Shown in pieces: positions 6,001 to 12,000 of a DNA stretch of 64,000 bases. The stretch comes from Haliotis rubra (taxonomy: Eukaryota), in assembly GCF_003918875.1 (NCBI RefSeq), contig NW_025765303.1, positions 868,001 through 932,000 of the forward strand, in the 5' to 3' direction. Position 1 is the stretch's first letter. Every line of letters starts with the position of its first letter. The position numbers are program-made.

Positions 6001-9000
6001 AAAGAATCAGATGTTACTTACTACATAATTTAAAAATGCACGCACTCTATTGTCAGATAATGTGAGCAGTTAATAATTATCAATTCATTAAATTATTAAA
6101 CTTTTGAAAACTAATTTTGTGGCTTTTGGGGGAATTTCCAAGCATTCTCTTTGTTAAGTAAAACATTCTCTTTACATATAAACCAAAAATGTATCACTTC
6201 CAAATTAGGAAAATTTAGAAAAATATTCACACAGAACATTAACAATAAAAATATGAAACTGTCCTTATTTGACAAACGTGTGATTGATTGAAATAGCTCG
6301 GAAGACAAGCCCTTTTAGTCACGGATGTCATGAGTCACAATGTATAATGATATGTACATGAAATAAATTATGTCTATTTCATAAGGAAATTCATCATCAT
6401 CAGTCAGTAAAGCCATGCTCATGATATGACCTTATAAAGCATCAATAACAAAGAGAATGTTTTTGTATCTGACATGAAACAAACAAAATAAAAACATCAT
6501 TACAAACAAAATGTTCATACTTACATAAAGGATGGTATTAGGGCTAAAATTGTAAATTTTGAAAACATGAAAATACTTTTTTCTAAGCAAAATGGTCATT
6601 CTGAAGCAAACTTTGAACTTATAAATGTCTAAGAGACTGCTCAATGCAATTGTACTGACAATAAAGGTGCACAAAAGAATTAGCTGCAGTGCAAACAACA
6701 GAAAAGCAAGGACAAGCAGCATAGCTGAGATATTTGACTTAGTAGCCAAGACAAGAGAGCTGTGGGGAGCCCGAGGTTTTTGCAGAGAACGATTGTTGAA
6801 TGACGATAAATGTTGGTTAATAAGCTCTGTAGACATCTTTACCTGACAGTATTAGAGTAGTGGAAACCAGTCTAATGCTGTTAGGTAAGATGGCGCCAGA
6901 ACCTAGACTGTTCTCACCATTCCTGCCGCGACGGGCATCTCCGAGTGCGTATGCGTAGCGGTGACATACGTACGTAGCCAGGCGAAAGTGAACACGTACG
7001 AAAGTTGATGTGCTGTTCTGTTAGGCGTGAGGAAGGCCACGAGTGCAAAGCTTGAGTTTATCTCCAGCAACAAATATTTAAGCAGTGGTCGAAGTAGTAT
7101 ACACTAAATTCTCAATGGCAGTATCCCTGTATGAGATCCCTGAACAGACTGCGAGACAAAGGACACAAACTACGTTGATCTGGGATAATCATGTCGAGTA
7201 GCTTTCCTCTACAGCGCTCACCGTCATCCATGTGTGACCGAACAAAGGAGAAGTCCAACACAACTTCCTCGGGAAAAAATCAATCTTCAAATTCAAATGT
7301 AACTCCCTAGAAAAATGTCACTGGCAACAACACAACTCCCAAGCCAAGCAAATCCTCGCTTGAATACCAATCTAACCCAACGACAGGGGAACGACCAACA
7401 TAGCCAACATGTTCTAACTGACGTATCCCGATCCGCTTTCTAAATTTATACCCAAGAGGCCGTTAATGACAGCTTCCATACGACTAAAAACTGGTTTGTG
7501 AGGGCAGTCGACTCTCCCATGTCTCAGTGCATTGCGCGGGCCACTGGGCTCCTATCCCGACCTTCCGACTCGCGACACATCGACCAGAATAACCACAAGT
7601 CATTGTGTGGATGCTTAAATCCTGGAACGTAGCGGCCCTCTTTCGCCAATCCCTACTGAACCGCACCTTTAGAGGGTAGTCAAACCAACACTCTCTCACA
7701 TGAAAAGGAAAACCGGGAGCTATTCGCTCGCTCATCCATTGACTGTTGACAAAGCCTGGCCAAGCAACTCAATCAGCGAGTGGCCTGACCTTTCTATAGT
7801 CTGCCTTTACAAAGTTTACAGCCTTGTTCCCTTGAAGGGTCGCTCAACCTGCTTGATGAGCCAAAACCTGTTCCACAGGGACGTGCCTGAATGCCTTAAT
7901 GCTACTCTTCAGTAGATCACTAGCCACGTAGGTAAAAAAAGTTGTAAAAGGTCACATTGCATAGCGGTCACAAGGATTCAGTAACCAGCTAGCAGTGTAT
8001 GCCTTTCTGTTCGTCAATATTTGCCAGCCATCTAATCTGGCCTCGTCTGCCTGCAAAGCCAGTGTCCCGACTACTAGTGTTACCTTCCCCCGACCACATG
8101 CCCTCCACCGCACAGAAACGCTGTGTCAGATCAGCCCTACGTCAACCCACCATCAAGCCAGCAGACCTAATTTACACAACTACTACACATTCCAATATGA
8201 ACGGTTACCCAAGTCTCCGGGATGTGCACCTATCACGCCAATAAAGGCTGGATTTATAATGGCTGTTACCTGGTTACAGGGATAAACTTTGCTCTGACGA
8301 TACGATGTGATGGCACTGGTTTCCATAGGAACCATATAAACGGGAGGAGGCATTTGGGGCCATTCCGTTCACTTTTTATCTCTAACACTGAAGCATGGCA
8401 GCCTTTTTCAATTAGTCGGCACATGAAACTCTCTGCACTCATCAAGCAAACTCTATAGAATTACAAACTTTTTTAAGTCGGTATTTTGTTTTGACATTTA
8501 ACAACCCTTCAGTTATCCCCTGAAGCTAATCATTAATCTTCTCTCCATTTTAATAAACTATTATTAGCATGTATCAAGCATTTATGGCCCTAAACTCCAG
8601 CTTTCACAAAATATGCTATTAAAATATATTACACCAAGCCAAACAAAATAACACCAAGACTGATAATTTAACATGACTTAATTACCATGTGAATGATCAT
8701 ACCTTCCAATACCAACACCAAACAATATCTGGACTCACGCCAAAACGTCTTTCTTAACGAAATAGTTCATAAATCAAATTTAACCAAGGTATGTCAAAAT
8801 AATATCAGTTAATTAACCATTATGTCATGCACGTATCTGCAAACAAGATTAAAACAGCCACAAGAGAATATTCTTACCAGCTTCCTAATGAAAAGCTAAA
8901 TCTTTAATGGTTCCCACTATGTAAAAACTGTATTGACGATATAAAGAAAGATGGCCTCGTCACATTCCCAGAATAAGCACATTCCGCAAGATCCAATAAA

Positions 9001-12000
9001 TCACATTAATCAATGAAGCACCTGCGCTGCTATGTGTTAACAATGTATGAGACACCAAGTTCCCGACTTGGAGTCGACACCAGCTAAGCCACAATATCAG
9101 ACAAGAATGCATATGTCAATGTATTCAGTTCAATACACGAATCAAGCCTACTTAATTCTCCTCAGCCACTGAGATAAATAAATCTGTTTGTTTATCCTGC
9201 TTTGATAAGTCATGAATTGAAAACAGCTTTGATAGCAATCAAATTTGCTTTGGGCTTTGCAAGCTTATTGCCAAGGGCCTGTGCTCTATCTTATCATACA
9301 AAATCTGATCAACACTCAATGTGCCTCAATAATTTAAACTTGATTATATATATATGACATTTTTTTCTCGTTCTCCTCTGGAGAGTTAATCAGTTAAAGT
9401 GCTTCATTTCTTTGATTACAAAACAAGCCTTGAACAAAATGTAATGCATTTTAATCTAGCTTGAAATGTTTAATGTCAGATTTTTCTACAACATTTTATG
9501 CTAGTGTTTCAGACAAGTAAACTAAGACACCTTGAATGAACTTTGTCGGTAAATATTAATTTTATAGAAAAATACAACCATAAAACTGGAACATTTTTAA
9601 CATATTGTTAGGGACTGTCTCATGCAACTTTATTATTAATGATGCTACACATTTCACAGTGACCTTCAAAGTATCCTCACTAAGCTGTCTCCTACTAGGA
9701 GATAAGAAGAGGATTAAGTAATGGTAATAAATTATGATCTATCGTTATCACTCAAAACCAAACAGATACAAAGGAATTGCCACAATGGTAAGATAAACCC
9801 TTACTGTAGGTTAAATCTAGGCTGACTTGAAACAGCATTTATCCCAGACACATTGGAATTACTATGTGAATGGATTTGCTGTATGCTTTTCGAATCAGTT
9901 ATATCTCATGTATGTCAAATTGTAAGTGGATAACTAATGTCAAATCCTAAAATGTTTTTTCAATATGTTATGCTTCACACAAAACTAATGAGCTGTATAT
10001 TATATGTAAAGTCAAATTACAGTTGATGACTGTAATCTTCATGAGGACTTAATGAAAATATTGTGATAAATTAATACATGTATACAAATGTAACATTTTT
10101 ACAATTAACATATTTAGGTGTCCTTATTACAGGTAATGACTGTATGTCATAATTTTATGACAGAGATGAATTGTAAATGCTTTCCAATCAGAAATGGTGG
10201 GGAATTATTTTGTTGAATTTGGGTTATAAGAATGCCTACAATGCTTTCTAAAATAAGTGTGAAAATGAAAGAATGTGAATCCGGTTATGGGACACATTCA
10301 TACAGGTCAACTACGTGGAATTGAAAGGTCTACCTCTCATGTCGAACACTCAAGTTTCTCATACACGTTCTTACCTGTCGATCTTTTTGAAATTTTAAGA
10401 AGGCTTCTTGAAGGCTTGTTTGTTTTGGTTCCCCCCAGTCTATGACGAATGCATTAGAACGTTTTGAAAGTGTAGACTTTTTCTTTGAGTCATTAGGCAT
10501 GGTTGGTGGTAAAATGTCACATGTCTTACTCTTAGGTTCAGCCATTTTGTCAACATCAGTGACAACTGGTGAGATTTCTCTGGATCGTGTTAGATCTAGA
10601 CGCATATTCACATGCAAGGTTGTGTCCACTCTGTTGGACCAAGTCAATGTCTGCGTCATCACATTCCATAGATTTATCAGTAGAGTGTGTTATGATTGAG
10701 TGAATATCATTGACAGAATATACACCGGGAAGTGCTTTGTTTTGAAGCTGAGCGCCTTGGAAATATGTAAACACTAAGTATGGCGTCGGTTTTTTGTAAA
10801 CTGGGTCTCCATTGGTTAAAACGTTGAACCATCAGCCAATCATATATCATATGTTATATCTAGTTTACATTGGTTACAGAACTCCCACTTTGACAATGTT
10901 CCAAAAGCCTCTTGAATATTTAATCATTGATAGGTGATCAATCGGATATGATCAGTGATCCATGCCATGATCAAAGGATATAAATACCGACTAGACTCAA
11001 CATGACGTAGCAAGAATCTGAAGCACAAATAGAATTCTCCTTGCACATAACGATTGCTTTCCAATATTCCAAAGAAAATAGTTCACTGGGTCTGTAATTA
11101 TAATTATTACTATTTTATTGCAATTAATTTATAACAGACAATGGTTGATAATACCACATAGCAAGACGACAACATTAGTTCCATTTAACCAAGAATGGGT
11201 CCCGGTGAATGATCACAGCGAACAAAATTAATCAATAACTGAAACGCGACCCGTGAGCAATGGATGGGAGATAACTCCGTAGGGCATGTTACCAAAGCCC
11301 AGTTGAAGCATGTTCAGCGTAAATTATGGACACCTTGTCACATTCGCTCTAAATATCAAGTACTCCCAGCAATATAATACTGCTATTCGGAATGTCAATG
11401 GAAAAGATTAATTTTGCAGCAAATATAAAACATAACCTATGAATTACCAGCGAAAACACCCATATGGACCTCAAGTTCTCCAGAAATGTCGATTGGCTTT
11501 TATTTTTCATTTTGACCCGACAACGAACATTGTGATGTTCACAGGATATAAGACAATCACATACATGTGAAAACTCGTTCGCCAGGTAAAGCCACGAGAC
11601 AAAAGCATTTCTAAAGTAATAAATGTTAGATGATATAGTATTAAACTAATGTAAGTTTCAACGTTGTGAATGGAATCACTACATTGTACAGAAAACAGCA
11701 CTACTCCTGGTCTAACATACATGGATATTCAAAGTGCGATATTAAACAACAACCATTCCGACGCTATCTAAAACAGATTCACACGCACAACGTATTTGGA
11801 GGCTAGCTGTTTCGGTTTGGTATTCAGCACTTCTCACACTGAGTGCCAAATCGAAACTCACGTCGTGCATCTTCCAAATATTTATCCGCATATATCTGTA
11901 CTTAGATAACGTACGGATTGTGTTAAGCGTATATCAAATGAAAAATACTCCATAAACGAAAAATCATTTATTTCTACCGTTACTAAGCCAAATTATACTG

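What the first reader, a model, noticed from the sequence alone, without database searches (positions are those of the whole stretch)
6832..10545. mir-8 nested in the intron of a same-strand gene that may be TTLL10-related (possible deep miR-8/miR-200 micro-synteny)
Seen: the mir-8 hairpin lies 3.5 kb downstream of a coding exon ending in a perfect donor on the same strand. Established: the vertebrate miR-200b/200a/429 cluster lies next to the 5' end of TTLL10, a tubulin polyglycylase. Inference: the SLQEAFxKF peptide is reminiscent of ciliary/centriolar proteins. If the host is a TTLL10 or TTLL10-associated gene, the linkage predates the protostome-deuterostome split. I cannot identify the gene from 57 aa.
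Basis: partly seen in the sequence, partly recalled or inferred. Interest (0 to 1): 0.65.

Follow-up and report, generated by a model that had tools for sequence, protein, structure and literature searches.

The report
mir-8 inside abalone TTLL10's first intron
A mir-8/miR-200 microRNA gene sits in the first intron of the abalone version of the tubulin-modifying gene TTLL10, the same pairing seen in mouse, which confirms a very old but already published gene linkage.

Summary
Both features are real. Rfam places a mir-8/miR-200 precursor at 6829-6897 (-) at 60.2 bits (gathering score 47). It folds well (z -6.3). It lies 3,477 nt downstream of a same-strand coding exon (10375-10545) that ends CAG|GTAAGA.

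The 57-aa peptide is the N-terminus of two annotated Haliotis proteins of about 1,500 aa (95% and 81% identity). Their ligase domain is a TTLL10 orthologue. No later exon lies in the window. So the hairpin sits, in sense orientation, in a first coding intron longer than 10.37 kb.

It is not new. Mouse Ttll10 is called the host gene of miR-200b/a/429 (PMC5356520). Liu et al. 2025 (PMC11848845, Table 2) list "8~ttll10" as a sense-intronic linkage of bilaterian age.

The SLQEAF motif opens a conserved NlpC/P60-like cysteine-peptidase domain. That domain is fused to TTLL10 in sponges, cnidarians and abalone. It is annotated as a separate gene, on the same contig where shown, in four other molluscs. 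Three searches found no paper on this pairing. It is a candidate partner isopeptidase of the glycylase; this function is speculative.

Not checked: splicing, expression, synteny in other animal genomes.

The parts
6829..6897 (-). mir-8/miR-200 family precursor hairpin, single copy in the window
   Evidence: Rfam RF00241 at 60.2 bits against a gathering score of 47, E 7e-11. Fold -36.2 kcal/mol, z -6.3. No other miRNA family match in 1-14000 at E<=1.
6832..6854 (-). 3' arm carrying the family seed AAUACUG (presumed mature miR-8-3p)
   Evidence: Aligned to the conserved 3' arm of the Rfam consensus. One match in the window at up to 3 mismatches, 0 expected. A CNNC motif lies 17-20 nt downstream of the arm.
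6898..8500 (-). GC- and CpG-richer block directly upstream of the hairpin; a possible intronic promoter or regulatory region of mir-8 (inferred)
   Evidence: GC is 0.44-0.50 against about 0.28-0.41 in most of the rest of the intron, apart from a second peak of 0.47 at 3751-4500. CpG observed/expected is 0.64-0.78 in the bins 6501-8500 against 0.06-0.44 in the bins 1-6500 and 9001-10000.
1..10374 (-). 5' part of the first coding intron of the host gene, open at the window's start, so longer than 10,374 nt
   Evidence: tblastn of the two full-length Haliotis proteins finds only the N-terminal exon. Every other window match has E >= 0.44.
10369..10374 (-). splice donor GTAAGA after exon-final CAG
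   Evidence: Read directly from the sequence. The tblastn alignments to both orthologues end exactly at 10375.
10375..10545 (-). first coding exon of the abalone long TTLL10 (57 aa from the ATG at 10545). The frame also holds ATGs at 10605 and 10659, which the orthologous models use
   Evidence: The peptide is 95% and 81% identical over 57 aa to H. asinina and H. cracherodii proteins that carry Pfam TTL and NLPC_P60. Over the longer frame it is 92.6% identical across 95 aa.
10375..10449 (-). conserved motif FVIDWGEPKQTSLQEAFLKFQKDRQ, which begins the NlpC/P60-like N-terminal domain
   Evidence: Aligns with the N-termini of TTLL10-like proteins of Oscarella and Hydractinia and of one unnamed eukaryote sequence. 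It also matches standalone homologues from bivalves, amphioxus, a tunicate, a flatworm, a rotifer and a ciliate.
11001..13500 (-). CpG-richer stretch upstream of the exon; a possible promoter region of the host gene (inferred)
   Evidence: CpG observed/expected is 0.75-1.33.

Best explanation
The window holds the 5' end of the abalone orthologue of TTLL10, the tubulin/protein polyglycylase that elongates glycine chains. It is a long form whose N-terminus is an NlpC/P60-like cysteine-peptidase domain.

The first coding exon (10375-10545, or up to 10659, minus strand) is followed by an intron longer than 10.37 kb. A single canonical mir-8/miR-200 hairpin lies 3.48 kb into that intron, in the sense orientation.

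Shown: the hairpin, the exon, its donor, the identity of the exon with the N-terminus of TTLL10 orthologues, and the absence of later exons in the window.

Inferred: the hairpin is transcribed as part of the host pre-mRNA, or from a promoter in the CpG-richer 1.6-kb block just upstream of it, or both. Microprocessor then cuts it out of the intron.

The arrangement matches mouse miR-200b/a/429 in Ttll10. It is one more instance of the MIR-8~TTLL10 sense-intronic linkage that dates to the bilaterian ancestor.
For: - mir-8: Rfam 60.2 bits, E 7e-11; fold z -6.3.
- Exon: 57 aa plus a GTAAGA donor. It hits H. asinina P0002 (1507 aa) at 95% identity and 100% coverage, E 1e-25, and H. cracherodii P0003 (1497 aa) at 81%.
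- Both proteins carry Pfam TTL (4e-51 and 9e-51) and NLPC_P60 (23.9 and 24.2 bits against a cut-off of 23).
- TTLL10 orthology: in the search with P0002 residues 735-1105, 541 proteins reach E<=1e-10 and 120 are listed. No listed hit is named for another TTLL paralogue. The named ones are TTLL10, polyglycylase or 'protein-glycine ligase, elongating'.
- Xenopus tropicalis TTLL10 scores 472 bits, 53% identity over 418 aa. The best PDB paralogues score 95 bits (TTL) and 84 bits (TTLL3).
- A 33-row maximum-likelihood tree follows the species tree. The Haliotis pair sits inside a 15-row mollusc clade with SH-aLRT 96.
- Only exon 1 is in the window.
- The last 15-25 residues of the exon are conserved in fused NlpC/P60-TTL proteins of a sponge and a cnidarian. 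The exon therefore belongs to that protein architecture.
- Literature: PMC5356520 names 'the host gene Ttll10'. PMC11848845 Table 2 lists '8~ttll10' under Bilateria, sense strand of introns.
Against: - No RNA evidence was available. Splicing from 10374 to the next exon, and on to the TTL exons, is inferred from gene models of two other Haliotis species, which are themselves predictions.
- In four other molluscs the NlpC/P60 part and the TTL part are separate gene models on one contig: Batillaria BaRGS_00036408 and _00036411, Tegillarca KUTeg_002687 and _002685, Mactra, and Mya. The 1,500-aa Haliotis proteins could therefore be read-through models.
- The CpG-richer block upstream of the hairpin suggests that mir-8 may have its own promoter. 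In that case 'host' is a matter of position rather than function.
- No enrichment of E-boxes of the kind that regulate vertebrate miR-200 promoters was seen.
Confidence: 0.85

Rival explanations
1. The exon belongs to a separate NlpC/P60-domain gene that lies immediately upstream of TTLL10, and the 1,500-aa Haliotis proteins are read-through predictions. mir-8 would then be hosted by TTLL10's neighbour. The micro-synteny with TTLL10 would hold, but not the host relationship in the strict sense.
For: - Separate models on the same contig in Batillaria (locus tags 3 apart, 450.7-kb contig), Tegillarca (tags 2 apart), Mactra and Mya.
- Standalone NlpC/P60 proteins in amphioxus, Saccoglossus, Styela, rotifers and some vertebrates.
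- Patella, Littorina and bivalve TTLL10 models of 570-720 aa have no N-terminal domain. Only 6 of the 120 proteins match that domain.
Against: - Two independent Haliotis models are fused and align along the whole linker, at 75% identity over residues 19-734.
- 18 of the 120 listed relatives of the domain carry Pfam TTL in the same protein, including sponges and cnidarians (checked by Pfam on 5 of them).
- A teleost TTLL10 model, Aldrovandia P0118, starts inside the domain: its residues 1-224 match Albula NlpC/P60 at 44.5% identity, E 9e-45.
- Both Batillaria models are flagged 'partial'.
Confidence: 0.25
2. mir-8 is an independent transcription unit with its own promoter inside the intron. Its position in TTLL10 is a relic of its origin with no present coupling of expression.
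For: - The GC- and CpG-richer block 6501-8500 lies directly upstream of the hairpin in an otherwise CpG-poor intron.
- Liu et al. argue that old intragenic miRNAs tend to become independent of their hosts (section 6 read).
- Recalled, not checked here: the vertebrate miR-200b cluster has its own mapped promoter.
Against: - Composition alone is weak evidence for a promoter.
- No transcription-start data were available.
- Retention of the position and the sense orientation across bilaterians suggests some constraint. Shared regulatory landscape could explain that equally well.
Confidence: 0.4
3. The co-location is coincidence or convergence: mir-8 landed in or near TTLL10 independently in molluscs and vertebrates.
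For: None found. It cannot be excluded formally from one window.
Against: - The host was named in advance from vertebrate data and then found among the genes of an animal genome.
- Strand and sense orientation match.
- A 34-species analysis reconstructs the linkage at the Bilateria node.
Confidence: 0.03

Closest known systems
Mouse miR-200b/200a/429 cluster in Ttll10 (and, recalled, the human cluster just 5' of TTLL10 on 1p36.33)
   Same: Same miRNA family (Rfam RF00241), same host gene family, and sense orientation (Liu et al. Table 2 footnote). Ttll10 is called the host gene.
   Different: - The window has one hairpin rather than a three-member cluster.
- The abalone host carries an N-terminal NlpC/P60-like domain. 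None of the listed amphibian or mammalian TTLL10 proteins matches it; 6 of 120 proteins match, none of them a tetrapod.
- The intron number in vertebrates was not checked.
Other bilaterian-age sense-intronic miRNA/host pairs (MIR-33~SREBF1, MIR-190~TLN2, MIR-153~PTPRN, MIR-7~HNRNPK)
   Same: They are listed in the same row of Table 2 of PMC11848845 as 8~ttll10: an ancient miRNA kept in an intron of an orthologous host across phyla.
   Different: For MIR-33 and SREBF a functional partnership of miRNA and host is well known (recalled). None is known for miR-8/200 and TTLL10.
NlpC/P60 gamma-D-glutamyl-L-diamino acid endopeptidases (PDB 3npf, 3pvq; YkfC-like)
   Same: A profile of the N-terminal domain family hits them at E 3.5e-6 and 7.3e-6. 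DCCGLV aligns with DCSGLV and HVEI.LG with HVGIYLG. These are the Cys and His motifs of the family.
   Different: - The domain is eukaryotic, and is fused to or annotated beside a tubulin-type glycine ligase.
- Pfam scores sit at the cut-off, about 23-24 bits.
- The third catalytic residue and the fold were not assessed.
- The substrate is unknown.

Membership tests
mir-8/miR-141/miR-200 precursors (Rfam RF00241) | Covariance-model score at or above the curated gathering score | tested here: met
   60.2 bits against 47, E 7e-11, full-length match.
mir-8/miR-141/miR-200 precursors (Rfam RF00241) | Stable hairpin with the family seed on the 3' arm | tested here: met
   -36.2 kcal/mol, z -6.3, 0 of 200 shuffles as stable. 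The 3' arm aligns to the consensus arm containing AAUACUG.
mir-8/miR-141/miR-200 precursors (Rfam RF00241) | Mature small RNA actually produced (Drosha/Dicer products) | not testable with these tools
   No small-RNA data available.
TTLL10 (polyglycylase, elongating) | Closest relatives are TTLL10 orthologues rather than other TTLL paralogues | tested here: met
   Tested on the orthologous full-length protein P0002, not on window DNA. Searches (414-692 bits to the 120 listed proteins, whose named members are TTLL10; 472 bits to Xenopus TTLL10; 95 bits or less to solved TTL, TTLL3, TTLL6, TTLL7 and TTLL11; tree follows the species tree).
TTLL10 (polyglycylase, elongating) | The window's exon is spliced to the TTL-domain exons in this genome | not testable with these tools
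   Only exon 1 is in the window, and no transcript data were available. The link is supported indirectly by two fused Haliotis models and by fused proteins in sponges and cnidarians.
TTLL10 (polyglycylase, elongating) | Glycine-chain elongating activity | not testable with these tools
   Biochemical assay needed.
MIR-8~TTLL10 sense-intronic linkage (Liu et al. 2025) | The miRNA lies within an intron of the host, on the host's strand | tested here: inconclusive
   Same strand, 3,477 nt past the exon-1 donor, and no later exon before the window's end. The acceptor side lies outside the window, so intronic status is inferred.
NlpC/P60 papain-like peptidases (Pfam PF00877) | Sequence match to the family model | tested here: met
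   P0002 scores 23.9 bits and P0003 24.2 bits against a cut-off of 23. 32 of 34 standalone homologues match at E<=0.01, best 4e-8. The profile hits PDB NlpC/P60 chains at E 3.5e-6. Atlas score 0.96.
NlpC/P60 papain-like peptidases (Pfam PF00877) | Conserved catalytic Cys and His | tested here: met
   Cys97 and His164 of alignment A2 are invariant in 34 of 34 rows and align with the DCSG and HVG motifs of 3npf. The DCC[AGS]L[VI] motif occurs in 118 of 120 relatives. The third triad residue was not assessed.
NlpC/P60 papain-like peptidases (Pfam PF00877) | Papain-like alpha+beta fold | not tested
   The structure-prediction tool was not accepting jobs.

The most novel reading that the evidence does not exclude
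The exon shows that ancestral animal TTLL10 was a two-enzyme protein: an NlpC/P60-type cysteine isopeptidase joined to the glycine-chain ligase. MIR-8 arose in the first intron of that gene. In tetrapods, loss of the peptidase half left the miR-200b cluster stranded at the 5' end of TTLL10.

The peptidase half, related to enzymes that cut gamma-glutamyl isopeptide bonds, would be the long-sought tubulin deglycylase, or an editing enzyme that trims glycine or glutamate side chains.
Probability: 0.15. Interest if true: 0.85.

Novelty: new member of a known kind. Interest (0 to 1): 0.42.

Why it matters
The main result confirms, in a vetigastropod, that one of about ten bilaterian-age intronic miRNA/host pairs is still intact. 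That is useful as a synteny anchor and for annotating mir-8 and TTLL10 in molluscs, but it is already in print as a table entry.

More could come from the by-product. The host's first exon opens an NlpC/P60-like peptidase domain that travels with TTLL10 from sponges to fishes. Enzymes that remove tubulin glycylation were still described as unidentified in a 2024 paper (PMC11244163, passage seen). A conserved isopeptidase-like domain fused to the glycine-chain elongase gives a concrete candidate that can be tested at the bench.

Tried and rejected
- My first guess, from memory, was that SLQEAF resembled an ALMS-type centrosomal motif. Pfam found no family for the 57 aa even at E<=10, and the homologues point elsewhere, so I dropped it.
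- Further miRNAs near mir-8: none in 1-14000 at E<=1.
- ZEB-type E-box cluster upstream of mir-8: CAGGTG occurs 0 times and CAGGTA once in 6898-8900, against a window mean of about 0.5 per kb each. No signal.
- Neighbouring genes for wider synteny: 10 of the 30 stop-to-stop frames of at least 110 aa listed were scanned. They gave only a sub-threshold DDE_3 transposase match and a sub-threshold SprT-like match. The rest of the window is repeats. No neighbour was identified.
- tRNA at 53957-54025: Rfam scores 30.7 bits against a gathering score of 29, but ARAGORN finds no tRNA. I do not treat it as a functional tRNA.
- Structure prediction of the NlpC/P60-like domain was not accepted. I retried once after the stated wait, and then dropped it together with the fold search.
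- Campo-Paysaa et al. 2011, cited by Liu et al. for deuterostome intronic miRNAs, is not held in the library.
- The genome-contig collection was not used because it holds only bacteria and archaea.
I therefore do not know which species carry the linkage in their data.
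Full report
**Observation.** Reading 6700-10700 on the minus strand and scanning the whole window against Rfam confirm both features.
- A mir-8/mir-141/mir-200 precursor (RF00241) lies at 6829-6897 (-). It scores 60.2 bits (gathering score 47), E 7e-11, and covers the full model.
- The opposite strand scores 43.2 bits, below the gathering score.
- The hairpin with flanks folds to -36.2 kcal/mol, z -6.3, and 0 of 200 shuffles fold as well.
- The 3' arm (6832-6854) is unique in the window.
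- The hairpin starts 3,477 nt past the donor, on the same strand.
- The open frame runs upstream to 10689 with further in-frame ATGs at 10659 and 10605, so the start codon is not settled.

**What the exon is.** Only one exon of the gene model lies in the window.
- Pfam finds nothing in the 57 aa.
- The protein search finds two annotated abalone proteins: Haliotis asinina P0002 (1507 aa; 95% identity, full coverage, E 1e-25) and H. cracherodii P0003 (1497 aa; 81%).
- tblastn of both proteins against the window matches only their N-termini. P0002 residues 1-95 match 10659-10375 at 92.6% identity, and the alignment ends exactly at the donor. All other matches have E of 0.44 or more.
- Exon 2 therefore lies beyond window position 1. 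The first coding intron is longer than 10,374 nt, and the hairpin sits inside it if the orthologous models hold here.

**Which gene.** P0002 and P0003 carry a Pfam TTL domain (E 4e-51 and 9e-51) and a weak NLPC_P60 match (23.9 and 24.2 bits; cut-off 23).
- Searching the TTL region (residues 735-1105) against shorter proteins gave 541 hits at E<=1e-10, of which 120 are listed.
- No listed hit bears the name of another TTLL paralogue. The named ones are TTLL10, polyglycylase or 'protein-glycine ligase, elongating'. Two names are generic and the rest are unnamed or hypothetical.
- Identity is 80% to Patella vulgata TTLL10, 59% to the best-scoring amphioxus TTLL10-like protein, 56% to Xenopus tropicalis TTLL10 and about 48-53% to mammalian TTLL10.
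- A direct comparison with Xenopus TTLL10 gives 472 bits, 53% identity over 418 aa.
- Against solved structures, both the abalone and the frog protein reach at most 95 and 71 bits, to TTL. TTLL3, TTLL6, TTLL7 and TTLL11 score lower.
- A quick maximum-likelihood tree of 33 TTL domains follows the species tree: sponges; cnidarians; amphioxus plus vertebrates; annelids plus molluscs. The Haliotis pair sits in a 15-row mollusc clade (SH-aLRT 96), next to Patella (80).
- This is one-to-one TTLL10 orthology.

**Does the exon really belong to TTLL10?** The N-terminal region of P0002 (about residues 77-348, starting within the window's exon) aligns with the N-termini of four TTLL10-like proteins. These come from the sponge Oscarella, the cnidarian Hydractinia and two unnamed eukaryote sequences, at 46-59% identity and E 4e-73 to 2e-90.
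- In the alignment, the exon's last residues (SLQEAFLKFQKDRQ) match SLQDAFQRFRKAKQ in Oscarella, SLQEAFEKFRLKKK in Hydractinia and SLQEAFLRFRKAKQ in P0030.
- A search with residues 77-300 found 430 relatives at E<=1e-5, with 120 listed. Of those, 18 carry Pfam TTL in the same protein (sponges, cnidarians and unnamed eukaryotes).
- The rest are standalone. They come from amphioxus, Saccoglossus, Styela, rotifers, a flatworm, a ciliate and some vertebrates (coelacanth, geckos, sturgeon, Albula).
- In other molluscs the two halves are separate gene models on one contig: Batillaria locus tags _00036408 and _00036411 (both 'partial'), Tegillarca _002687 and _002685, Mactra, and Mya.
- A teleost TTLL10 model (Aldrovandia) starts inside the domain.
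- The domain tree puts the Haliotis copy among the mollusc copies.
- The exon is therefore the start of an ancient module that is either the N-terminal half of TTLL10 or its immediate upstream partner. Transcript data must decide which applies in abalone.

**How it most likely works.**
- Shown: the sense orientation, the position inside the 5' intron, and the canonical hairpin, including a CNNC motif 17-20 nt after the 3' arm.
- Inferred: the hairpin is cropped by Microprocessor from the host pre-mRNA, or from a transcript that begins in the intron, or both.
- The 1.6 kb directly upstream of the hairpin is GC-richer (0.44-0.50). Its CpG observed/expected is 0.64-0.78, against 0.06-0.44 in the bins 1-6500 and 9001-10000.
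- In a genome with CpG-depleted gene bodies, that pattern hints at an unmethylated regulatory island. This is composition only, not evidence of a start site.
- There is no E-box cluster of the vertebrate miR-200 promoter type.

**Comparison with what is known.**
- A mouse knockout paper refers to 'the host gene Ttll10' of miR-200b/a/429 (PMC5356520, passages seen).
- Liu et al., Mol Biol Evol 2025 (PMC11848845; sections 6, 7 and 16 read) analysed 34 metazoans, including Crassostrea gigas and Lottia gigantea.
- The main text says nothing more about this pair, and the per-species data are in supplements I could not open.
- A search for TTLL10 + miR-200 + synteny found 0 papers. TTLL10 + intronic + miRNA + host found 2 papers, of which only Liu et al. 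bears on the linkage.

**By-product.** The N-terminal domain is an NlpC/P60-type papain-like peptidase by sequence.
- 32 of 34 short standalone members hit PF00877 at E<=0.01.
- Their profile hits Bacteroides gamma-D-glutamyl-L-diamino acid endopeptidase structures (3npf at E 3.5e-6; 3pvq). The Cys and His motifs align there and are invariant in the alignment.
- The language-model atlas gives 0.96 to eukaryotic 'NlpC/P60 domain-containing protein' clusters.
- Searches for TTLL10 + NlpC, NlpC + glycylation and NlpC + TTLL each found 0 papers.
- A 2024 paper still speaks of 'unidentified deglycylases' (PMC11244163, passage seen).
- A peptidase of a family that cuts gamma-glutamyl isopeptide bonds, fused to or annotated on the same contig as the glycine-chain elongase from sponges to fishes, is a reasonable candidate for a glycylation-removing or editing enzyme.
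- This is inference from domain architecture only.

**Limits.**
- No animal genome collection was at hand, so synteny in other species could not be examined directly.
- There were no transcript or small-RNA data.
- The N run at 18174-18337 was left as it is.
- The rest of the window (10.7-64 kb) yielded only repeats and a transposase remnant. No further neighbours could be compared with the vertebrate locus.

Noticed in passing
window 10375-10449 (-), and proteins P0002/P0003 residues about 77-300: The exon's conserved end opens an NlpC/P60-like cysteine-peptidase domain. The domain is fused to TTLL10 in sponges, cnidarians and abalone, and standalone or on the same contig as TTLL10 elsewhere. 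No paper was found linking NlpC/P60 with TTLL10 or glycylation. It is a possible deglycylase candidate.
   Followed up: partly
window 6501-8500: A GC-richer (0.44-0.50), CpG-richer (observed/expected 0.64-0.78) island lies directly upstream of the mir-8 hairpin in a CpG-poor intron. A second CpG-rich stretch lies at 11001-13500, upstream of the exon.
   Followed up: partly
protein P0118 (Aldrovandia affinis TTLL10 model), residues 1-224: A teleost TTLL10 gene model begins inside the NlpC/P60-like domain (44.5% identity to Albula P0203, E 9e-45). The peptidase half is therefore still joined to TTLL10 in at least one vertebrate annotation. By eye, the His motif looks altered.
   Followed up: partly
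window 37007-41239: A large satellite: a 24-bp array (16 copies, 37007-37388) followed by a 32-bp array of about 116 copies (37437-41131). It gives spurious open frames in all three plus-strand frames.
   Followed up: no
window 44609-45548 (-): A remnant of a DDE-type transposase: DDE_3 at 23.7 bits, below the cut-off of 28.6.
   Followed up: no
window 53957-54025 (+): Rfam calls a tRNA at 30.7 bits (gathering score 29) with several mispaired stems, but ARAGORN finds none. It is probably a tRNA-derived repeat or pseudogene.
   Followed up: partly
window 18174-18337 and flanks to about 18510: An assembly gap (N run). On one side, all frames read as runs of a single amino acid (poly-T, poly-L, poly-V and poly-S/R), consistent with a simple-sequence repeat. 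It was left untouched.
   Followed up: no
window 24557-25012; 50307-50600; 48058-48281: Further tandem arrays of 52-bp, 53-bp and 86-bp units.
   Followed up: no
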